This document shows positions 1,903 to 49,182 of a stretch of DNA of 64,000 nucleotides, one piece after another (position 1 is the first letter of the stretch; each line of letters starts with the position of its first letter). This DNA comes from Nitrospirota bacterium (GTDB taxonomy: Bacteria; Nitrospirota; Nitrospiria; Nitrospirales; Nitrospiraceae). A program made the position numbers and the translations under genes. The notes under the pieces were generated by a model. It was not told where the DNA came from. It made no database searches and saw only the letters and a program-made list of their open reading frames with translations. Location: the NCBI GenBank assembly GCA_963701855.1, contig CAVPBK010000001.1:96001-160000 (forward strand), in the 5' to 3' direction.

Positions 1903-2017
1903 CAGCGGTTGCAGTGGAAGTCGTCAGGAAGAATGCCGGTTTGCAGGCTGTGAAAAACTATTATGGTACGCCTGGCAGTCAATGGCCCCTGCGCCTGGAG
2001 CAATGAGGATTGGACAA

Positions 2018-2232
2018 GCAGGATGCTCAAAAAGGCCGGACATCTCACCCGCCCAACCCCGGCGCGCCAAGACGCGCCTTTACCCAAACAAGGCCGCAGC
2101 GATCTATCCCTTAACTAAGGGGTGGCTGGGATGATCCCAACTGCGCGCGTCCAACGAGGGCCTTCGGAGGCCGCGCGTTGCGCGAGCAAAGGGATCGTCC
2201 CAGCTACCCCGCTCCCTTTTTCAGCATCCTGC
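2018..2232 (+). mobile_element. MITE-like element, family A, GC-rich structured cargo
   Basis: TIRs GCAGGATGCTCAAAAAG / CTTTTTTCAGCATCCTGC; core ACTGCGCGCGTCCAACGAG...GCGCGTTGCGCGAGCA shared with many copies. Confidence 0.75.
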
Positions 2233-2235
2233 CCA

Positions 2236-15832: not shown

Positions 15833-16018
15833 CAAGGAGAGGGATAGCCCGGGGAGCCCCCTGTGCTCGCGCAACGCGCGGTCTGAGAAGACCCTCGTTG
15901 GACATGTGCAGTGGGAGACCATCCGAGCCATTCTGGGAAAACGTCAACGAGCAAGTTTGGAAAAGCTATCGTTAGTTGCTCACTCCGGCCTTGCTGAACT
16001 GCCTTTTGAGCATCCTGC
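15833..16018 (-). mobile_element. Family A repeat element, reverse orientation
   Basis: Reverse complement closely matches 23424..23632; ends CTTTTGAGCATCCTGC. Confidence 0.75.
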
Positions 16019-23423: not shown

Positions 23424-23632
23424 CAGGCTGTTCAAAAAGACCGTCCAGCAAGGCCGCAGCGAGCAACTAAAAATAGTTTCTCCGAGCTTGCTCGTTGACG
23501 TTTCCCCAGGATGGCCCGGATGAGTCCCCACTGCGCGCGTCCAACGAGGGCTTTCTCAAGCCGCGCGTTGTGCGAGCACAGGGGAGTCACCGGGCCATCC
23601 CTCTTCTGCTGGCGGTTTTTTTCAACAGCCTG
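23424..23632 (+). mobile_element. Family A MITE-like element
   Basis: TIRs CAGGCTGTTCAAAAA / TTTTTCAACAGCCTG; conserved core module. Confidence 0.75.
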
Positions 23633-24067
23633 TTAAGACCAATACTGCGATGCCTTGGCATACCCAAACAACCGATCCCGCCGTGCCAGGATACCGACGA
23701 GCTTGCCGTTCCGAACCACAGGCACCCGCGTAATATAGCGATCCTGGAACAGATTCGCGACCTCTTCCAACTTCATATTCTCAGTGGCAGTTACCGGATG
23801 GGTGCTCATCATTTCAACAGCCATCACCTTCCGCAGATCCCGCCCCTCGATCATCGCCTGAAGCAGATCATACTCGCTTATCAGACCAACCAAGGTCCGG
23901 TCCTCTTCCACCATCGGCAGGCTGCCAAAATTTCGCTGGGTCATCATCCGGCTGATGGTCAGAGCATCGGTCCTGGAGCCACAGGTAAAGACCGCATCCT
24001 GCATCAATTGTCCCACAGTCAAAGTCTTCGGGTCGCAGGCCGTCGCAAGAAACTCCGTTTGTCGCAT
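23633..24067 (-). CDS. CBS-domain protein
   Basis: Tandem CBS motifs (LVGLISEYDL, LVGILARRD). Confidence 0.9.
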   Translation of the reverse strand: MRQTEFLATACDPKTLTVGQLMQDAVFTCGSRTDALTISRMMTQRNFGSLPMVEEDRTLVGLISEYDLLQAMIEGRDLRKVMAVEMMSTHPVTATENMKLEEVANLFQDRYITRVPVVRNGKLVGILARRDRLFGYAKASQYWS

Positions 24068-41581: not shown

Positions 41582-41821
41582 ATGATTTCTCATACACCCG
41601 TCACTGATCGCATTCTCGGAGCAGTCCAACGCACGCATGGGTGCGATCTGGATACGTTGACAAACAGTCTCTCTGACCTATCATGGGGCCAGGTCTTTCT
41701 TGAAGTCGATCGGCTAAGCCGGGAGGGTGAGGTCCTGGTGACGCTCGACACCGGAGGTCGCTACATGATCCGGATGCCGGAGCACAAGAAAGGGCGCGCG
41801 ACCCACTACGTCCGGTCCTGA
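41582..41821 (+). CDS. Small putative winged-helix protein (paralog 2 of 3)
   Basis: SWGQVFLEVDRLSREG; AGGAGG RBS. Confidence 0.75.
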   Translation: MISHTPVTDRILGAVQRTHGCDLDTLTNSLSDLSWGQVFLEVDRLSREGEVLVTLDTGGRYMIRMPEHKKGRATHYVRS

Positions 41822-41904
41822 TCAACGAAGGGGTCGGAGGGGATCGCGAGCGAGGAGGGACATCCTCACTGATCCTCAACTGGGCGATTATCCCTAACTT
41901 GACT

Positions 41905-42340
41905 TAAGGATACTGAGCAAGGCTTGACCTGGCGTTTCACTGCGCGCATCCAACGAAATCTTTTGATTCCACCTCTCTCTCCAGGGGAGTGGCCGAGGCT
42001 GCCCTTTACTGCGCGCATCGAGCGATATACATGTTCCCTCCAAGCTTGCTCGTTCTCTCTCTAGGGATGGGGGCTGATGGATCTTCCACTGCGCGCGTTC
42101 AACGAGGGCCTTCCGAGGCCGCGCGTTGCGCGAGCACAGAAGATCACCAGGCTCCATCCTCTCCTCTGTTCTGCGAGCAAGAAGGGCACCTGGCCGCGCC
42201 CTATCCTCTCCTCCCGGCTCTCCCCTTTCTCTCATCGGAGGGCGGCCTGTTTGGTCTCCCACTGCGCGCGTCCAACGAGGGCCTTCTCAGGCCGCGCGTT
42301 GCGCGAGCACAGGAGACCAACAGGCTGCCCTCCTTCCCCT
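41905..42340 (+). repeat. Nested array of four family A core modules
   Basis: ACTGCGCGC starts near 41939, 42008, 42088 and 42261, each with a different closing stem. Confidence 0.85.
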
Positions 42341-42976
42341 CTATTCGAAGAACTTCCTCACCCCCGCCTTAATCTGGTCCAGCCCCTGGCGCAAGTCGGT
42401 TTCAAGCACATCGGCCTTGGCCTGCACCCCCACGCGCTTGGCCTTGAGCTCGTCCTTGAACGACACCAGCTTAGTGAGTAGCTCCTGCTTCTTTGACTCC
42501 AGCGTAACTTGCTGTTTGGCTTTCTCGCTCTCAAAGCGGCCCTTGAGTGCCTCAAACTCGGCTTCGAGGGTGCTCGTCCGGCCCACGAGATCCTCCCAAA
42601 CCTTGCCTGATTCGAACGAAGCCCCTTTCACTTTCTGCTCCGCAACAGATTCGAACTCATTCAGAGCCTTGAGAATCTTTGTCCTCTGCTCCTCGAACGT
42701 GTCGCGGGCGTCCGCCTTGCCGAGGGCCAACTGGACTTGCAAGTGTTCGAGCTTGGCCTGCACGTCAGTCTTTGCCTGCTCTGCCATCTCCTTCGACTTC
42801 TGCACGTCGGACTGGACCTGCTTGAGCAGATCTCGTAGCTGTTGCTTGCGCTGTTCCAGCCGCTGCTGCGCTTGATCTTTCGTCTGGGTCAGTTGCGCTT
42901 CAAACGCCAGCGCCTGATGCTCCAACGCATCCAACTTCTTGTCGAACGATGCTCTGAGTTCCTTGATTCGCGACAT
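42341..42976 (-). CDS. Coiled-coil hypothetical protein
   Basis: K/E/Q/L-rich heptads; HLQVQLALGKADARDTFEEQ; GAGG RBS. Confidence 0.8.
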   Translation of the reverse strand: MSRIKELRASFDKKLDALEHQALAFEAQLTQTKDQAQQRLEQRKQQLRDLLKQVQSDVQKSKEMAEQAKTDVQAKLEHLQVQLALGKADARDTFEEQRTKILKALNEFESVAEQKVKGASFESGKVWEDLVGRTSTLEAEFEALKGRFESEKAKQQVTLESKKQELLTKLVSFKDELKAKRVGVQAKADVLETDLRQGLDQIKAGVRKFFE

Positions 42977-43193
42977 GGGGACCTCCTCTGGGTGAAATGG
43001 AACATATAAACCAGCTGCCTTCTTCTGCCGAGCGTGGCATGATATCGTCGCCAAAAGCAGGGAAGAGAGAGTCATCGCTTGACCTTGCACTGGACTGCCA
43101 GCACGCCATGACAATCCACCTATTCCATCCCTGCATAGCGCAGTATCGCGTCAAGCAATGGTCCCTTTTGCGGCATGAACCCAAGAGCCAGGG

Positions 43194-44477
43194 CTAGGGA
43201 GTCTTTGCACAACGAAACCCATAGCCGAAGTGCCGATTCGTCGGCTGGGCAGCGAACCGGTGCGCGGAACGCAGGAACTCAGGGACATAGAGCCAGGACC
43301 CACCCCGCACCACTTTAGCCTCACCAGTTGTCGGCCCTATTGGGTTCCGCCGCGGGCTGTTCTTATAATAGTCATAGTCATACCAGTCGCTGACCCATTC
43401 CCAGGCATTTCCGGCCATGTCATAGATGCCATAGGGACTCCGGCCTTCTTCGAAAGATCCTACCGGGACCAAGGCCAAATGGTTGTTCCATTCCTTTCTT
43501 CCGTAATTCGCGTGAAGCCGCGTAGGTGCTTCATTACCCCAGGGATAGATGCGTCCATCCGTCCCCCGCGCCGCCTTCTCCCACTCGGCCTCCGTCGGCA
43601 GCCTCTTGCCGGCCCATTTGCAGTACATGACAGCATCCTCCCAATCCACGTTTACAACCGGGCGTTTCTGATGTTGGGATTGATTCATAATATACCAGTC
43701 CGGCGGCTCCTCCATGTCAGTCGCCTCCAGATATTTGGCGTACTGTCCTACCGTCACCTCGTACTTGTCCATATAGAAGGCATTGAGGTAGACGTGATGT
43801 GCGGGACTTTCGTCATCTGCCAGATTACTCCCCATCGTGAATTCCCCTGCCGGCACCAGCGCCATCGGCACCCCTTGCATACCGACCTGCCCTTCCCCTC
43901 CCGTCAATCCGTCTAGTCTCAGCATGCTCGGCGAGGCAGTCGATCGCCGCTGTGAGAGTTTCGCTAGCAATTGTTGGTAGACAACCTGTTGCTCTTCGTT
44001 GAGACCCATCTCGTCGGCAGCGTCCAGAGTGTCCTTCGCCTGCTTCATCCTGTCGGGCGACGCCTTTCCGCCTGTGATCAGATCCTTCGCTTCGTCCAGC
44101 AATCGCCATACCTTCACTTCGTCCAGTAACTGCCACACCTTCGCTTTGCGTAATCGTGGTTTAGCCGATCCGACCACTGCAGATTTGGCATCCAGTTCCA
44201 GCGCGGTCTCGTAATGTTCTTCCGCGCATGCCCAGGCTTTCAAGCCCCGACAGGCCTCAGCCAAGTAGAAATGCGCCTGTGAATTCGACGGATCTTTCTT
44301 CACGCCGGCTTCCAGCTCCATGCGCGCCTCTGTATACTGTTTTTTCTTCAGTAGTTCCACCCATTTGGCAAATTCCTTATCGCCGGTATGGGCGGCCTGA
44401 GCGGTCACAGAGTTAGCGATCATCCCCGACCACATGAAGAGACACAACACGGTAAGTATTCTCACCATCTGCCTCAT
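43194..44477 (-). CDS. Exported TPR plus formylglycine-generating-enzyme (SUMF1) domain protein
   Basis: TPR helices; FTMGS, RLPTEAEWEKAARG, DMAGNAWEW, RGGSW, GFRC. Confidence 0.92.
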   Translation of the reverse strand: MRQMVRILTVLCLFMWSGMIANSVTAQAAHTGDKEFAKWVELLKKKQYTEARMELEAGVKKDPSNSQAHFYLAEACRGLKAWACAEEHYETALELDAKSAVVGSAKPRLRKAKVWQLLDEVKVWRLLDEAKDLITGGKASPDRMKQAKDTLDAADEMGLNEEQQVVYQQLLAKLSQRRSTASPSMLRLDGLTGGEGQVGMQGVPMALVPAGEFTMGSNLADDESPAHHVYLNAFYMDKYEVTVGQYAKYLEATDMEEPPDWYIMNQSQHQKRPVVNVDWEDAVMYCKWAGKRLPTEAEWEKAARGTDGRIYPWGNEAPTRLHANYGRKEWNNHLALVPVGSFEEGRSPYGIYDMAGNAWEWVSDWYDYDYYKNSPRRNPIGPTTGEAKVVRGGSWLYVPEFLRSAHRFAAQPTNRHFGYGFRCAKTP

Positions 44478-44599
44478 GGAAGCTCCTCTCCCAATTGTGA
44501 TTCCTTCGTGGATTCGACCTCGCCTGCTGGCACAGATCACGAGTCACGACAAGCCCGGCGAGCTTACCAGAAAACGAAAACGGTGGTCATGAGCTCAAC

Positions 44600-44990
44600 G
44601 GTTCCCCCTCTTGCGCCCGTCGAGCTACCACTACGATGCTCCCCTCAAGCTTGCTCGTTATCTCTCTCGGGATGGGGGCTGATTGATCTTCCACTGCGCA
44701 CAGCTTTCTCACCCGCCCACCCACTGGCACGCCGAGACGTGCCATTAGCCCGGGCGAGGGCCCTCCAATCCTCTTTACCTCTCTTGAAGGGAGTGGCAAA
44801 GGCTGCCCTTTACAGCGTGCATCGAACGAGCACCGTTTCACTGTGCGCGTTCTGCGAGCAAGAAGGGCACCTGGCCGCTCCATCCCCATCCTTCCGAGGC
44901 CGCGCGTTGCGCGAGCACAAAAGATCATCAGGCTCCATCCCGTATTCTGCTCCGCAAGCAAGGGATCAGCACAGATGTCATTCCACCCAT
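44600..44990 (+). repeat. Nested array of family A core modules
   Basis: Same modules as 41905..42340 in a different nesting order. Confidence 0.85.
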
Positions 44991-45037
44991 TTTTTTCTCC
45001 AGCTAGCCCTGCCGACATCGAGGCCGATCGCATCGCT

Positions 45038-45400
45038 TCACTTGGCGAGGGTCCGCACATAGGTCAGCACGTCTCTGCTCTCTTTCTCCGAGAGGCGGAC
45101 ATCCCAAGGCGGCATGTTCGGTTTGCCGTCATGGATAGTCTTGATCAGGTCGGCATCGGATTTCTTTCTGGTCGATGGTGATGTGAGGTTAGCCGGATCC
45201 GGTCCACGAAGAAACTTGTACCCATCCCCTCCACCCTCCGGCCCGTGGCAACCGGTGCAGTATCTGACAAACAGGATCTTTCCACGCGCCACATCGCCGC
45301 TCCGAGCCCTGGGCTCAGCTTGTCCTAACGCCACAGTCCCGAATAAAAGGCCGCTCACAAGCCCGACTGTTGCCATCTTAAGCATCCAGCTCCGCTTCAT
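45038..45400 (-). CDS. Periplasmic monoheme cytochrome c
   Basis: Signal peptide, CTGCH, MPPW. Confidence 0.92.
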   Translation of the reverse strand: MKRSWMLKMATVGLVSGLLFGTVALGQAEPRARSGDVARGKILFVRYCTGCHGPEGGGDGYKFLRGPDPANLTSPSTRKKSDADLIKTIHDGKPNMPPWDVRLSEKESRDVLTYVRTLAK

Positions 45401-45485
45401 AACATTTCCTTCCGTTCGGTGTGCCCTACCGGCTGCATGCAATCGAAGCCCTGCCTTCGATGTAGCAGATCGAGCCTCCAGACCA

Positions 45486-45782
45486 CTAGTCCGGTTGTCG
45501 ATCGATCCCCGCTTTGATGGTCACGAATCGCCAAACCCCGACCCCCAGGAACAACATGCCCGTGACCAGCGAGACCACACCCAGCGCTTGAAATCCGCCC
45601 CCCTCCAGCCACCACACGGCCGGAATTCCAACGGCAAAAAACCCCAGCGCAGTTCTGATGTACGACAGCAACGTGCGCTCGTTGGCCAACTCGGTCCGTT
45701 GCCGGGCCAGCCGATCCCGCACAAGGGTATCCGATTGCTCAGGCATAGGAGACTCCGATTTCTCGCCGAAACGATACTCCAT
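45486..45782 (-). CDS. DUF202 (YidH-like) membrane protein
   Basis: RTELANERTLLSYIRTAL. Confidence 0.9.
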   Translation of the reverse strand: MEYRFGEKSESPMPEQSDTLVRDRLARQRTELANERTLLSYIRTALGFFAVGIPAVWWLEGGGFQALGVVSLVTGMLFLGVGVWRFVTIKAGIDRQPD

Positions 45783-45864
45783 CGAATCGTGAAGCTCAAC
45801 AGATGTGCAGCAAAATCAGACGTCCGCCGTTTCAGCCTCTCCAAGATTACTTATACTTTCCTCA

Positions 45865-46050
45865 CGGGAGGGTGATCTGTTTGATCTCCCACTGCGCGCG
45901 TCGAACAACCGCTATGATGGTCCATCCAAGCTTGCTCGCTTTCCCATTGTGGAATGGCACTCGTGGTGGTCCTACTGCGGCCGTCGAGCGAGCACATTCT
46001 GATCGTGCGCGCTCCGGGAGCACAGGACCATCACGGGTGTCATTCCACTC
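45865..46050 (+). repeat. Family A core modules
   Basis: CCCACTGCGCGCGTCGAAC, CCAAGCTTGCTCG, stem GTGGAATGGCAC/GTGTCATTCCAC. Confidence 0.75.
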
Positions 46051-49000
46051 CTACACCCACTCCGGCGCATACTCCTTCCCTGCTTCTTTTTCTGCGAACC
46101 ATCGATACAGGGCCGGCAAGACCACCAACGTGAGTGCCGTCGAGGTAAAGAGGCCGCCGATGACGACGGTTGCGAGCGGCCGCTGGACTTCGGCACCGAT
46201 CCCCTGCGCGAGCGCCAATGGCAGCAGACCCAGCAGCGTCGTCATCATCGTCATGACGACGGGGCGAAGCCGGAGGACGCAACCGCTGACGATAGCCTGG
46301 TCCATCTGCGCGCCTTCGCTGCGCAACTGATTGATATAGGAGACCAGCACGATCCCGTTCCCCACCGCAAGGCCGAATAGTTCGATAAAGCCGATGGAAG
46401 CCGGCAGACTCAGATATTGTCCGCTCAGCCACAGAGACACAACGCCCCCGATCAAGGCGAAGGGGAGATTGATCATGATCAACGTCGCGTAACGGAGCGA
46501 GTGAAACGCCCAGAAGAGCAGAAAAAACACGAGCCCCAGCGTAATAGGCACCACGATTACCAGCCGCTCGTTGGCCCGCTCCATGTTCTCGAACGCTCCG
46601 CCCCACGTCATCTGGTACCCTTCAGGCAGGTGTACCAATGATTCCAGTTTCTGCCGCCCTTCATCCACGACGCTGCCGATGTCGCGCCCGACGACATTGA
46701 AGCCGATGTAGATGCGGCGCTTCACTTGCTCCCGGCTGATGCTGAACGGCCCTTCGCGCATCTCGATCGTGGCGAGTTCGCTCATCGGGATCAGCGCGCC
46801 GGACGCCGACTTCACCCGAATCTCTCCGATGGTGCCGATGCTGTTGCGTTGCAGTTCCGGGAACCGAAGCGTCAATTGAAACCGCCGCTCGCCTTCGTAG
46901 ACATGGGTCACCGCCTTGCCGCCGATCGCGGTGGTCACGATCTCCTGCACGTCGGCCACGTTAATGCCAAAACGGGCGATCTTCTGCCGGTCAATGTCGA
47001 GCGTCAGATAGGGCTGGCCGGCAATCTGCTCGACTTTGATGTCTTTGACGCCGTTGATCAGCTGCATCAAGGCGGCAATCTTCTCCGCCTTGTCGTGCAG
47101 CACATCAAGATCCTCCCCGTACAGCTTAATCGCGCATTCCGCCCTGACGCCGGAGATGAGCTCGTCCACCCGGTGTTGAATCGGCTGGCTCATGAGCACG
47201 GAGATGCCTGGAATCTCCGCCAGTTTTTTCCGGATGGCGTCGGTCAATTGCGGCTGAGTGGTCGCCGTCTTCCATGTGCTCCGATCACTCAGAGACACGA
47301 TTGGCTCGCTCTCGTTCAGTTCCTCCGGCCCTACAGCAATCTCCGGCCTGCCGATCTTGCTCACGGCCATCCGGACTTCTGGAAACTCCAGCATGACCTT
47401 ATGGGCTTGTTTCTCCATCTCTATGGACTCCGGCAGCGAGACGCTCGGCAGCCGAACAATCTTGGGCGTCAGAGTGCCTTCTTCTAGTAGTGGGATGAAC
47501 TCCCGTCCCACAAATGGAACAAGGGCAAGGCTGCAAAGCACGATCGCTGTCGAGCTGCCGAGCACGAGACTGCGATGCCGGAAGGTCCAGGTTAGCACCG
47601 GCACATAGCGCTGTTTCATCCAACCAGCGAGGCGCGTTTCTTCCGGATGGTCTCCACGCAAGATCAATGATGCGAGCACCGGCGACAGGGTCAACGTGAC
47701 TACGACCGAAGCCAAGAGAGCGATCACCAACGTGTAGGCCAGCGGTGCGAACATCTTCCCTTCCATGCCGTGGAGCGTCATCAGCGGCAAAAACACGACA
47801 CTGATGATCAGAATGCTAAACAGGATCGGCCGGCCCACTTCTTTCGTGGCCTGAAGAATCACCTCCGACGTACTCTTCTTCGTTGCGCCATGGTTCTGCG
47901 CCAGGTGCCGATAGACGTTTTCCACCACGACCAGCGATCCGTCCGCAATCTCGCCGATGGCGATGGCGAGTCCGCCGAGCGTCATCAAGTTGGCCGAGAG
48001 CCCCAGCCGCTGCATCACGATGAATGTGATCAGGGGAGTGACGATGAGCGAGACCGTCACCACGACGGCGCTGCGGACGTGGCCCAGAAAGAAAAAGAAG
48101 ACGAAGATCACCAGCACGATCCCTTCAATCAAAGCATCCCGCACCGTATTGATCGCCGCCGTGACCAACTCGGTGCGATCGTAAAAAGGCAGGAGCTTCG
48201 TGCCCGAAGGAAGGATATTGTTCTGCTGGAGATCTTCCACCTTGGTCTTCACCGCTTCGACTACCTGACGAGCATTGCCCCCGCGAATCATGAGCACGGT
48301 GCCAGCCACGACCTCCCGCTCGCCGTTGAGCACCACTGACCCAAGGCGGACGGCGTGGCCGATGCGGACTTCCGCGACATCACGAACGAAGACCGGGGTG
48401 CCGCCGGCCTCTTTCACGATGATGGACTCGATATCGCTCATTGTCTTGATGAGGCCCAGGCTGCGGACGATCGCCCGTTCTGCATGGCGCTCCAGCACAT
48501 TGCCACCGGCATTGGCATTGTTCTTTGCCACCGCGCTGTAAATGTCGTGGAGCGTCAGGTCGAACTTGCGGAGCTTGGCCGGATCGACCAGGACTTGATA
48601 CTGTTTGACGAACCCGCCCATGCCGTTCACATCGATCACGCCGGGCACGCTCTTGAGCAAGGGGCGCAAAACCCAGTCCTGGAGCGTGCGCTGATCCATC
48701 AACTCCGTCTCGATGATCTTGGGGTCGGTCTCCGCCGCATTCGGCCCTTCCACATAATATTGATAGACCTCGCCCAGCCCGGTACTCACAGGGGCCATGA
48801 CAGGCTCCAGCCCATCGGGCAATCGCTCCTTCGCCGCCATGATCCGTTCGAGAACCAACTGGCGGGCGAAGTAGATATCGACGTCGTCGTTGAACACGAC
48901 CGTGATCTGGGAGAGGGCGAATTTTGAAAGGGATCGGATCTCCGCTAAACCTGGCAGGCCGGTCATCTGGAGTTCGAGCGGATAGGTGATGAATCGTTCG

Positions 49001-49182
49001 ACTTCGACCGGTGAGAGACCGGGCGCGTCGGTCAGCACCTGCACCTGGATGTTCGTTACGTCGGGATACGCATCGATCGGGATAGACTGAAAGGCGAAGA
49101 CACCGGCGACGGACAACAGGCAGGCCAGGCCCAGAACCAGTATCCGCTGTCGCAGCGAAAATTCCAGAAGAGAGGCGATCAT
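46051..49182 (-). CDS. czcA: CzcA/CusA heavy-metal RND efflux permease
   Basis: PIDAYPDVT, GLGEVY, GLAIAIG..ADGS, LRLRPVVMT. Confidence 0.95.
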   Translation of the reverse strand: MIASLLEFSLRQRILVLGLACLLSVAGVFAFQSIPIDAYPDVTNIQVQVLTDAPGLSPVEVERFITYPLELQMTGLPGLAEIRSLSKFALSQITVVFNDDVDIYFARQLVLERIMAAKERLPDGLEPVMAPVSTGLGEVYQYYVEGPNAAETDPKIIETELMDQRTLQDWVLRPLLKSVPGVIDVNGMGGFVKQYQVLVDPAKLRKFDLTLHDIYSAVAKNNANAGGNVLERHAERAIVRSLGLIKTMSDIESIIVKEAGGTPVFVRDVAEVRIGHAVRLGSVVLNGEREVVAGTVLMIRGGNARQVVEAVKTKVEDLQQNNILPSGTKLLPFYDRTELVTAAINTVRDALIEGIVLVIFVFFFFLGHVRSAVVVTVSLIVTPLITFIVMQRLGLSANLMTLGGLAIAIGEIADGSLVVVENVYRHLAQNHGATKKSTSEVILQATKEVGRPILFSILIISVVFLPLMTLHGMEGKMFAPLAYTLVIALLASVVVTLTLSPVLASLILRGDHPEETRLAGWMKQRYVPVLTWTFRHRSLVLGSSTAIVLCSLALVPFVGREFIPLLEEGTLTPKIVRLPSVSLPESIEMEKQAHKVMLEFPEVRMAVSKIGRPEIAVGPEELNESEPIVSLSDRSTWKTATTQPQLTDAIRKKLAEIPGISVLMSQPIQHRVDELISGVRAECAIKLYGEDLDVLHDKAEKIAALMQLINGVKDIKVEQIAGQPYLTLDIDRQKIARFGINVADVQEIVTTAIGGKAVTHVYEGERRFQLTLRFPELQRNSIGTIGEIRVKSASGALIPMSELATIEMREGPFSISREQVKRRIYIGFNVVGRDIGSVVDEGRQKLESLVHLPEGYQMTWGGAFENMERANERLVIVVPITLGLVFFLLFWAFHSLRYATLIMINLPFALIGGVVSLWLSGQYLSLPASIGFIELFGLAVGNGIVLVSYINQLRSEGAQMDQAIVSGCVLRLRPVVMTMMTTLLGLLPLALAQGIGAEVQRPLATVVIGGLFTSTALTLVVLPALYRWFAEKEAGKEYAPEWV

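What the first reader, a model, noticed from the sequence alone, without database searches (positions are those of the whole stretch)
41905..46050. Structured repeat modules nested inside each other reciprocally
Seen: modules share the core ACTGCGCGCRTCSAACGAG-[variable hairpin]-GCGCGTT(G/CT)GCGAGCA, closed by long stems whose sequence differs per module while pairing is kept. They are often preceded by CCAAGCTTGCTCG. At 41984-42201, module Y (GGAGTGGC..GCTGCCCTTTAC / GAAGGGCACCTGGCCGC) is split by a complete module X (GGGATGGGGGCTGAT / ATCA.CAGGCTCCATCC). At 44644-44941 the order is reversed: X is split by a third module (CTCACCCGCCC, also at ~2044 and ~24151) plus a complete Y. Further variants lie at 2018, 15833, 23424, 24125, 30872, 42237, 45865 and 57488. 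Inference: independently mobile, structure-defined units that target each other's cores, such as an ssDNA/HUH-type or RNA-mediated element or an undescribed ncRNA family. I do not recognise it as a named repeat.
Basis: partly seen in the sequence, partly recalled or inferred. Interest (0 to 1): 0.82.

Follow-up and report, generated by a model that had tools for sequence, protein, structure and literature searches.

The report
Self-nesting hairpin DNA repeats in Nitrospira
The region holds piles of a roughly 100-base hairpin-forming DNA repeat that sits just behind genes, lands inside the tips of its own relatives and is found across a whole bacterial family without any known jumping enzyme, so it is a real, undescribed variant of a familiar kind of bacterial repeat.

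Summary
The window carries 10 full copies and several half copies of a ~105-nt foldback repeat. The tip is a fixed 49-nt core. The outer stems differ between copies but stay paired. The genome has 148 full copies in 150 arrays. Covariation beats the shuffled and slid controls in this genome and in five other genera. Both nestings are real: Y split by X at 41982-42204, and X split by a third module plus Y at 44668-44941. Both are present in an independently assembled relative. Break points cluster at the hairpin tip, and guests are co-oriented with their hosts. Arrays abut stop codons, with the better-pairing strand antisense to the gene. The core occurs in 103 of 120 genomes of the family sampled and at most once in each of 16 genomes of sister families. 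Neither Y1/HUH (RAYT-type), IS110 nor integron-integrase genes track it. Rfam has no match. Best reading: a non-autonomous, DNA-level foldback repeat of the REP/MITE kind, reshuffled by recombination through its core, with the enzyme unknown. This scan met the same family before in other Nitrospira genomes.

The parts
41930..41960 (+). fragment of a 5' core (model positions 20-50) at the left edge of the array
   Evidence: nhmmer hit, E 0.0035; also kept in G015
41982..42025 (+). 5' half (outer arm plus 5' core) of a Y-type unit, the host
   Evidence: nhmmer model 4-46; pairs with 42168-42204 at -34.5 kcal/mol
42026..42061 (+). leader of the guest, holding CCAAGCTTGCTCG at 42040-42052
   Evidence: the same leader precedes units at a fixed 32-38 nt genome-wide
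42060..42164 (+). complete X-type unit (guest) sitting in the tip of the Y host
   Evidence: covariance model 100.3 bits, E 8.8e-26
42168..42204 (+). 3' half of the Y-type host
   Evidence: nhmmer model 66-103; arm complementarity
42233..42337 (+). complete unit; its 3' base lies about 7 nt from the stop codon of the minus-strand gene 42341..43114
   Evidence: covariance model 110.6 bits; sequence; ORF
44600..44626 (+). degenerate 5' core fragment in front of the next leader
   Evidence: nhmmer model 19-45 on the intergenic stretch
44636..44667 (+). leader with TCAAGCTTGCTCG (44645-44657)
   Evidence: repeat family D3
44668..44702 (+). 5' half of an X-type unit (host), cut after ACTGCGC
   Evidence: nhmmer model 4-38; pairs with 44890-44941 at -32.4 kcal/mol
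44703..44762 (+). third module (T): TTCTCACCCGCCC followed by its own small hairpin
   Evidence: sequence; the 13-mer has 103 genome hits at up to 1 mismatch, and about 20 of the 60 contexts printed directly follow a unit's 5' core, ACTGCGCGC or a close variant
44784..44887 (+). complete Y-type unit (guest) with its own CT-rich leader (44763-44789)
   Evidence: covariance model 72.3 bits; Y-type flanks compared
44890..44941 (+). 3' half of the X-type host, starting in the tip loop (CCTTC...)
   Evidence: nhmmer model 50-101
44949..44986 (+). remnant of a further 3' half, 79% like 46011-46048
   Evidence: the repeat finder family D7
45868..45913 (+). 5' half of a unit with no 3' half in this genome; the matching 3' half is present in relatives G015 and G064
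   Evidence: nhmmer model 6-51; orthologous loci
45914..45946 (+). leader with CCAAGCTTGCTCG (45926-45938)
45947..46050 (+). complete unit; its hairpin ends 2 nt from the stop codon of the AcrB-type gene 46051..49182(-)
   Evidence: covariance model 89.4 bits; sequence; Pfam ACR_tran
23503..23606 (+). complete unit with leader; at this place G015 has a different central hairpin inside the same outer shell
2113..2216 (+). complete unit inside a larger inverted-repeat element together with a T module; the whole composite is missing in G015

Best explanation
These are arrays of an old, non-coding, non-autonomous foldback DNA repeat that is specific to this bacterial family.

Anatomy. Each unit is a ~95-nt rod-like hairpin. 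The tip is a nearly invariant 49-nt asymmetric core. The ~20-bp outer arms vary. Many subtypes add a ~35-nt CT-rich leader and a short CT-rich trailer.

Shown. Units multiply as whole hairpins: two arm types have 19 and 17 copies at unrelated loci. Units are gained, lost and swapped between genomes only ~4% apart. They lie in one orientation directly behind stop codons. Several repeat families occupy the tips of resident hairpins, always co-oriented with the host.

Inferred. A host-encoded factor that recognises the folded core on one DNA strand opens or marks the tip, between ...CGAG on the left and GTT/CCTTC on the right. Another unit is then pasted or copied in. The identical cores next serve as homology for deletion, chimera formation and gene conversion. 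This would produce the many orphan halves and cassette swaps.

The enzyme is unknown and is none of the three tested here (Y1 HUH, IS110, integron integrase). Any effect on the neighbouring mRNA would be a by-product or a later co-option.
For: Copy number and structure. There are 148 full matches in the genome. nhmmer gives 283 hits: 143 full units, 78 5' halves, 54 3' halves and 8 others, in 150 arrays. Covariation: 85.7% paired against 63.0% shuffled, 0 of 500 shuffles as high. On 38 copies from five other genera that were not used to build the model: 89.4% against 63.3%, 0 of 500.

Proliferation. Clustering the 140 complete units by their arms gives 77 clusters, of sizes 19, 17, 7, 6, 5..., with 65 singletons.

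Turnover. Of 9 arrays in the window, 5 are kept, 1 is remodelled and 3 are absent in G015, which is ~96% identical. The spacer behind the AcrB gene holds different unit types and chimeras in 6 genomes. G012 shows a clean three-level nest.

Tip targeting and polarity. Break points cluster. Of 30 bracket-matched half pairs, 20 have complementary arms, against 183 of 870 permuted pairs. Of 75 multi-hit arrays, 73 are co-oriented. T modules and heptamer-armed hairpins also sit in unit tips.

Strand. MFE is lower on the forward strand in 98 of 140 units and lower on the reverse strand in 41. G-T cells number 121 against 63 A-C cells.

Position. Between co-directional genes, 63 units are antisense and 9 sense. 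Among array ends within 40 nt of a stop codon, the 3' side faces the stop 83 times and the 5' side 3 times. Of 148 arrays, 74 have the hairpin base within -12..+30 nt of a stop codon.

Age. The core is in 103 of 120 family genomes, in 35 of 39 genera counting G000's own. It occurs 0-1 times in each of 16 genomes of three sister families.
Against: No mobilising gene was found. Y1_Tnp is in 11 of 24 genus genomes. IS110 is in 52 of 120 family genomes and is missing from G001, which has 62 core hits. Integron integrase scores above its cut-off in 1 of 24 genus genomes. The 18 genes flanked by arrays on both sides look ordinary.

No consistent target-site duplication was seen, and hosts often lose 10-20 nt at the tip. 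I found no clean filled-versus-empty site in unique DNA. The clearest recent change is a cassette replacement that gene conversion alone could explain.

Deep conservation of the core and the constant presence of some unit behind the same stop codon in different species also fit a selected host function.

Paired changes in arms can arise without selection, by copying one arm onto the other.

The gene calls behind the orientation counts are my own crude ORF model: 3513 genes covering 75% of the genome.
Confidence: 0.58

Rival explanations
1. A host-selected element of mRNA 3' ends. The hairpin, read in the mRNA as the reverse complement, is kept behind stop codons because it protects, processes or insulates transcripts, or modulates termination of translation. 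It spreads only passively by recombination.
For: Half of the arrays start within -12..+30 nt of a stop codon. Orientation relative to genes is strongly biased: 63 against 9 and 83 against 3. Orientation follows transcription more than replication: no bias between convergent genes (18 against 15), and 8 antisense against 5 sense for lagging-strand genes. Some unit is present behind the same genes in several species although its type differs. The core is conserved across the family.
Against: Pairing is better on the strand that is not in the mRNA: G-T 121 against A-C 63, and MFE lower on the forward strand in 98 units and on the reverse strand in 41. There is no T run after the hairpin on either strand and no terminator-like excess, 5 found against 3.9 expected. 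Three of 9 window arrays are simply missing in a ~96%-identical genome. Piled-up and truncated copies are hard to see as tuned signals. A 49-nt invariant core is not needed for a generic stabilising hairpin.
Confidence: 0.2
2. A true REPIN-RAYT or other HUH single-strand DNA system. A Y1 transposase would cut next to the folded core on one strand and move the units.
For: The elements are hairpins with a conserved asymmetric core. They are polar and extragenic. Left junctions often follow a fixed tetranucleotide, CGAG. They persist over long times, as reported for REPINs (abstract starts of the two REPIN preprints listed). The genome has 4 Y1_Tnp matches.
Against: Y1_Tnp is missing from 13 of 24 same-genus genomes that all carry tens of copies, among them four of 99% completeness. 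No Y1 gene in this genome lies next to a unit: the Y1 genes are on C5, C12, C1:189 kb and C11:87 kb, the units are listed, and the nearest unit I see is about 3 kb away. The forward strand lies mostly on the strand with negative GC skew, taken as the lagging-strand sequence (100 of 140). The conserved part is the tip, not a REP at each end.
Confidence: 0.07
3. Genes for a small structured RNA or self-cleaving ribozyme, read from the forward strand.
For: A conserved core with covarying stems, and G-U favoured on the forward strand.
Against: No Rfam family reaches its threshold. The best weak hits are a microRNA-precursor model at 25 bits against a 100-bit cut-off. No promoter-like site was found in 41800-46200, 0 against 1.6 expected. 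The fold is a plain rod without junctions. Copies are truncated, nested and lost between close relatives.
Confidence: 0.06
4. attC-like folded recombination sites used by a tyrosine recombinase, with hairpin tips exchanged as cassettes.
For: The better-folding strand is opposite the mRNA and sits directly behind stop codons, as recalled for integron attC sites. Host junctions lie at ...AACGAG and GTT..., and tips are replaced as blocks.
Against: Integron integrase scores above its cut-off in 2 of 41 genomes, 1 of 24 in the genus. The conserved boxes are at the tip and not at the hairpin base. Host sequence is lost at junctions, which conservative recombination does not do. No gene cassettes lie between units.
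Confidence: 0.04

Closest known systems
REP / BIME elements of enterobacteria and pseudomonads
   Same: Short extragenic imperfect palindromes in tens to hundreds of copies. They lie behind genes and between co-directional genes, occur as mosaics of several motifs, and are hot spots for other insertions (recalled knowledge). Extragenic position and mosaic arrays are shown here.
   Different: The units are three times longer. The conserved part is the hairpin tip and not the whole palindrome. Units in an array are co-oriented and nested rather than alternating (73 of 75 multi-hit arrays). No RAYT gene tracks them.
REPIN-RAYT systems
   Same: Hairpins of ~100 nt, non-autonomous, vertically inherited and persistent over long times (abstract starts of 10.1101/2022.05.22.493013 and 10.1101/2021.07.10.451892, seen in the listing). 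Here the family spans 35 of 39 sampled genera, counting G000's own.
   Different: The defining single-copy Y1 transposase is not found in 13 of 24 same-genus carriers. The arms are not two inverted copies of one conserved REP. There are 77 arm types among 140 units.
Bacterial MITEs that nest in one another (Correia/NEMIS, Nezha, RPE and others; recalled)
   Same: Small non-coding foldback elements that multiply as families, with nested copies.
   Different: No consistent target-site duplication and no parent insertion sequence was identified. Insertion is into hairpin tips, with loss of host bases. The core is kept across a whole family of bacteria.
Integron attC sites
   Same: The sites are defined by structure rather than by sequence, one strand folds better, and they lie directly after a gene with that strand opposite the mRNA (recalled). 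The same polarity is measured here.
   Different: No integron integrase in 23 of 24 genus genomes. There are no cassettes, and the conserved boxes are at the tip.
Quasipalindrome template switching and gene conversion between dispersed repeats
   Same: These would keep arms paired without selection and could copy one tip over another. The swap at 23424-23606 between G000 and G015 keeps both outer shell arms and replaces only the centre.
   Different: They do not by themselves explain first arrivals in unique DNA (about 10 leaders lie in unique DNA). They also do not explain the family-wide invariance of an asymmetric core with fixed bulges.

Membership tests
REPIN-RAYT system | A RAYT (Y1 HUH transposase, Pfam Y1_Tnp) gene in every genome that maintains the repeat | tested here: not met
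   Y1_Tnp matched in 11 of 24 same-genus genomes, while the core motif is in 24 of 24. Four carriers of 99% completeness have no match.
REPIN-RAYT system | The RAYT gene is flanked by copies of its REP | tested here: not met
   The four Y1_Tnp places in G000 are not adjacent to any of the 148 units. None of the 18 genes flanked by arrays on both sides looks like a transposase (read by eye, no Pfam scan of these 18).
REPIN-RAYT system | The hairpin is made of two inverted copies of a short conserved REP | tested here: not met
   Conservation is in the central 49 nt, and the arms fall into 77 types among 140 units.
MITE (DDE-transposon derivative) | Target-site duplication of fixed length at both ends | tested here: inconclusive
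   Y-type guests in X tips show CCTTC..GA on both sides. The same words also precede Y units where no host tip exists. Other guests replace 10-20 host bases.
MITE (DDE-transposon derivative) | A related autonomous element with the same ends | not tested
   Only Y1, IS110 and integron-integrase profiles were searched. ISfinder was not available.
BIME mosaics | Neighbouring palindromic units alternate in orientation with set linkers | tested here: not met
   Of 75 multi-hit arrays, 73 are wholly co-oriented.
Integron attC | An integron integrase in the genome | tested here: not met
   TIGR02249 scores above its cut-off in 2 of 41 genomes, 1 of 24 in the genus.
Intrinsic terminator | A GC-rich hairpin followed by a run of T/U | tested here: not met
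   None of the 5 terminator-like sites in 41800-46200 is a unit hairpin followed by a T run (two short stems lie at the 5' edge of the 45868 half-unit); 3.9 were expected by chance. Flanks are CT-rich on the forward strand and so AG-rich in the mRNA.
Any Rfam 15 RNA family | Score at or above the family's gathering threshold | tested here: not met
   0 matches in the window. With lax filters on 41880-42360 the best is mir-3150 at 25.8 bits against a 100-bit threshold.

The most novel reading that the evidence does not exclude
Hairpin tips in these genomes act as general landing pads for a transposase-free, structure-driven copying process. Alternatively, the agent is a still unrecognised core-genome nuclease or recombinase specific to this bacterial family. 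In either case a folded core on the transcription-template strand is opened between CGAG and GTT, and another hairpin is copied in with fixed polarity. This process would have maintained a self-nesting population of several repeat families since before the genera of the family diverged. That would be a new class of single-strand, structure-targeted mobile DNA unrelated to HUH, IS110 or integron systems.
Probability: 0.2. Interest if true: 0.82.

Novelty: new variant of a known kind. Interest (0 to 1): 0.6.

Why it matters
Repeats of the REP/REPIN type are the only bacterial mobile DNA known to persist for very long times in single lineages, and they do so with a dedicated transposase.

This family has the same long persistence: it is in 35 of 39 sampled genera, counting G000's own. 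It has tens to about 150 copies per genome, yet none of the three enzymes tested tracks it. It also has three unusual properties:
- an invariant folded tip;
- a strict grammar of tip-in-tip nesting shared with other repeat families;
- a better-folding strand opposite to the mRNA, directly behind stop codons.

It gives a concrete bait, the folded 49-nt core, for finding the protein that recognises it. It also bears on the genomes of nitrifiers of environmental and engineering importance, where these arrays mark places of rapid rearrangement. For annotation, the covariance model prevents these hairpins from being mistaken for locus-specific riboswitches or terminators.

Tried and rejected
- Rfam: the gathering search of the whole window gave 0 hits. 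A lax search of 41880-42360 gave only chance hits to microRNA and snoRNA models.
- Enzyme hunts by co-occurrence found nothing that tracks the repeat: Y1_Tnp, IS110 DEDD transposase, integron integrase. Reverse transcriptase, TnpB and other DDE families were not searched.
- Genes flanked on both sides by arrays: the 18 found are ordinary proteins, such as an SDR, an MFS transporter, a UvrD-like helicase and FtsK (named by eye from the translations).
- The genes around the finding are ordinary too: FGE-sulfatase/TPR, cytochrome c, DUF202, AcrB.
- Promoter and terminator consensus scan of 41800-46200: 0 promoters, and 5 terminator-like sites against 3.9 expected, none of them a unit hairpin followed by a T run.
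- RNA evidence: the seven metatranscriptome runs listed hold at most 9% of the sampled words, and no reads were laid. Transcription, strand and RNA ends therefore remain untested.
- A motif I first took for a conserved gene end (GCAGGATGCTGAAAA) turned out to be the end of another abundant inverted-repeat element.
- A first regex for the 3' core was one base too long and found only 20 units. A BESTMATCH regex undercounted. Both were replaced by nhmmer and the covariance model.
- Literature: 'Nitrospira' was searched with REPIN, with repetitive extragenic palindromic, with miniature inverted-repeat, and with intergenic+palindromic+repeat. Passages were read in PMC12306157, PMC6006769 and PMC12542641. 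The first two only list a Nitrospira genome or order in a table or figure legend; in the third only the MITE passages were read, and they concern other contigs. None describes this family. ISfinder could not be consulted.

Full report
**What is there.** The window is G000:C1:96001-160000 of a 4.30-Mb, 15-contig genome with about 55.5% G+C. Earlier notes of this scan call it a comammox Nitrospira; I did not verify the taxonomy myself.

Lining up the copies shows a strict layout:
- an outer arm of about 20-24 nt;
- a 19-nt 5' core;
- a 14-nt apical hairpin;
- a 16-nt 3' core;
- a complementary outer arm.

In 132 of 145 candidate units the distance between the two core parts is exactly 22 nt. Each unit folds into a single rod-like hairpin of about -58 kcal/mol with fixed small bulges in the core.

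A covariance model built from 50 diverse copies finds 11 matches in the window. It finds 148 in the genome, where only 150 candidates were scored. A profile search that also catches pieces gives 283 hits: 143 full units, 78 5' halves, 54 3' halves and 8 others, in 150 arrays.

**Is the pairing more than chance?** Yes. On the 50 copies, 85.7% of cells form pairs, against 63.0% after shuffling partners and 37-47% when partners are slid by 1-3 columns. Double-sided changes number 454 against 152, and 0 of 500 shuffles reach the observed values. All 22 outer-arm pairs and 12 of 18 core pairs show changes on both sides. The two main core variants differ by compensating pairs, for example G-C 28 against A-U 19, and G-C 30 against C-G 17.

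An independent set of 38 copies from five other genera of the family gives 89.4% against 63.3%, again 0 of 500.

A caveat: paired changes in a DNA palindrome can also arise when one arm is copied onto the other, so covariation does not prove selection on an RNA.

**The nestings.** At 41982-42204 a Y-type unit is split after its 5' core by a leader plus a complete X-type unit, and the Y 3' half follows. At 44668-44941 an X-type unit is split by a third module (T), a leader and a complete Y-type unit. The separated arms pair at -34.5 and -32.4 kcal/mol. Both layouts are present, with point differences, in G015, an independent assembly ~96% identical in this region.

Genome-wide, 30 pairs of 5' and 3' halves can be matched like brackets. 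Twenty of them have complementary arms (at most -25 kcal/mol), against 183 of 870 permuted pairs. Relative G012 shows a clean three-level nest at the orthologous spacer. The reciprocal nesting is therefore real.

It is not the whole story. Of 78 5' halves, 48 have no partner, as do 24 of 54 3' halves. Ten matched pairs are chimeras of two subtypes, and arrays such as '5F' (14) or '555F' (3) outnumber tidy '5F3' nests (9).

**Junction grammar (shown).**
- 5' halves end mainly at model positions 36-40 (26 of 78) or 46-59. 3' halves start mainly at positions 50-51 (24 of 54).
- Guests with the CCAAGCTYGCTCG leader follow the host's ...AACGA(G) plus 0-9 nt, and the host resumes at GTTCYGCGAGCA. 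The host's apical hairpin is lost.
- Y-type guests carry their own CT-rich leader, which always follows CGAGGGCC. The host then resumes in the loop at CCTTC.
- T modules sit between ACTGCGCGC and CGAGGGCC.
- The leader motif precedes a unit core at a near-constant distance, 32-38 nt in 51 of the 54 cases. Thirty of the 54 leaders follow a host 5' core. About nine follow the arm of another repeat family that also ends in CGAG. About ten lie in unique DNA (the last two counts are by eye).
- T modules nest in T modules, and heptamer-armed hairpins sit in unit tips.

Hairpin tips are thus general landing places, and guests are co-oriented with hosts in 73 of 75 multi-hit arrays.

**Position and polarity.** I used my own crude ORF-based gene calls: 3513 genes covering 75% of the genome.
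- Units between co-directional genes are antisense 63 times and sense 9 times.
- Among array ends within 40 nt of a stop codon, the 3' side of the forward array faces the stop 83 times and the 5' side 3 times.
- Seventy-four of 148 arrays have the hairpin base within -12..+30 nt of such a stop, mostly 0-8 nt.
- In the finding itself all flanking genes are on the minus strand: a protein with no Pfam match, FGE-sulfatase/TPR, cytochrome c, DUF202 and AcrB. The units lie on the plus strand, 7 and 2 nt from two of the stop codons.
- The bias follows transcription more than replication. For genes on the strand with positive GC skew there are 53 antisense and 3 sense. For genes on the other strand there are 8 and 5. 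Between convergent genes there are 18 and 15.
- The forward strand, which is the template strand of the genes, pairs better. MFE is lower on the forward strand in 98 of 140 units and lower on the reverse strand in 41. G-T cells number 121 against 63 A-C cells.
- Since the forward strand is mostly the C-rich strand (100 of 140), the usual deamination bias would predict the opposite. This points to a constraint on the forward DNA strand (inference).

**Age and turnover.** The core motif is present in 24 of 24 same-genus genomes, with 18-200 hits at up to 2 mismatches. It occurs 0-1 times in each of 16 genomes of three sister families. In a wider sample it is in 103 of 120 genomes of the family, in 35 of 39 genera counting G000's own, with about zero hits of the reversed control pattern. 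Full-length units number 36-90 in five other genera, capped by 150 scored candidates.

Individual copies nevertheless turn over fast. Of the 9 arrays in the window, 5 are kept, 1 is remodelled and 3 are missing in G015. The spacer behind the AcrB gene carries different units, chimeras and guests in six genomes. At 23424-23606 the centre of a larger inverted-repeat element has been exchanged between G000 and G015: a leader plus unit in one, a different small hairpin in the other. Both shell arms are untouched.

Within the genome, arm types form 77 clusters among 140 units. Two have 19 and 17 members and 65 are singletons. This is the picture of a few active lineages and many old copies.

**What moves them?** None of the three enzymes tested tracks them.
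- Y1_Tnp is in 11 of 24 same-genus genomes.
- IS110 is in 52 of 120 family genomes and absent from carriers such as G001.
- Integron integrase is above its cut-off in 2 of 41 genomes.
- Genes bracketed by arrays are ordinary.
- There is no promoter-like or terminator-like signal in the region and no Rfam family.
- RNA data could not be examined. Only small shares of the region were held in the runs found, and no reads were laid.

**Reading.** The most economical account is a DNA-level, non-autonomous foldback repeat of the REP/MITE kind with two unusual properties. First, a family-wide invariant, asymmetric tip that must be recognised by some conserved host factor. Second, tip-directed, orientation-specific entry of new hairpins, followed by frequent recombination between the identical cores. 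That recombination deletes halves, builds chimeras and copies cassettes between paralogous shells.

Which steps are enzymatic insertion and which are template switching or gene conversion is not settled by the data. The excess of orphan 5' halves (48 against 24) suggests a polar process or polar loss.

The rival that the hairpins are kept for a role at mRNA 3' ends remains open at about one in five. The HUH, ribozyme and attC readings each fail a defining test.

**Comparison and novelty.** This scan has reported the same family from other Nitrospira genomes. Those notes are leads, and I re-measured their claims on pairing, nesting, orientation and strand polarity here.

- the family-wide distribution;
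- the independent-genera covariation test;
- the junction grammar with leaders;
- the orphan-half asymmetry;
- the orthologous-site comparisons;
- the negative co-occurrence tests for three enzyme families.

I found no description in five literature searches.

Noticed in passing
window 2016-2235 and 23424-23640; genome-wide: A second, very abundant element ends in inverted copies of GCAGGATGCTSAAAA, with 689 hits at up to 3 mismatches in the genome. It acts as an outer shell whose centre holds different hairpin cassettes: a T module plus a W-type unit, a unit with leader, or a small GC hairpin.
   Followed up: partly
window ~2041, ~24148, 44703-44762; G000 C1:51140/51169 and C6:1451917/1451945: The T module (TTCTCACCCGCCC plus a small hairpin) is its own family, with 103 hits of the 13-mer at up to 1 mismatch. 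It nests inside the tip of other T modules.
   Followed up: partly
G000 C3:120709-120909, C11:117023-117200, C15:13727-13917; loci L048 (G018) and L046 (G015) behind the AcrB gene: Hairpins whose arms are tandem ~7-nt words sit as guests in the tips of units. Earlier notes of this scan described these heptamer-armed repeats in other Nitrospira genomes.
   Followed up: no
window 41883-41924 versus G015:C17:67651-71281: About 3.6 kb present in G015 is missing in this genome exactly at the left edge of the 41930 array. Its gene start is also seen in G009, G047 and G075. The arrays may therefore mark deletion break points.
   Followed up: no
window 15834-16018 versus G015:C17:96940-99042: The unit at 15836-15940(-) lies in a 184-nt stretch that is replaced by about 2.1 kb in G015. 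The content was not examined.
   Followed up: no
window 44084-44137: A 27-nt tandem duplication, 81% identical, lies inside the TPR part of the FGE-sulfatase gene (family D10).
   Followed up: no
G000 C5:11607, C12:66015, C1:189485, C11:87349; C6:360922, C9:508402, C12:13459: The genome holds three Y1_Tnp matches with near-identical scores (two tie exactly) and the same 162-aa frame, plus one longer Y1 gene in a 239-aa frame. It also holds 11 IS110-type matches, three with almost identical scores. None lies next to a unit.
   Followed up: partly
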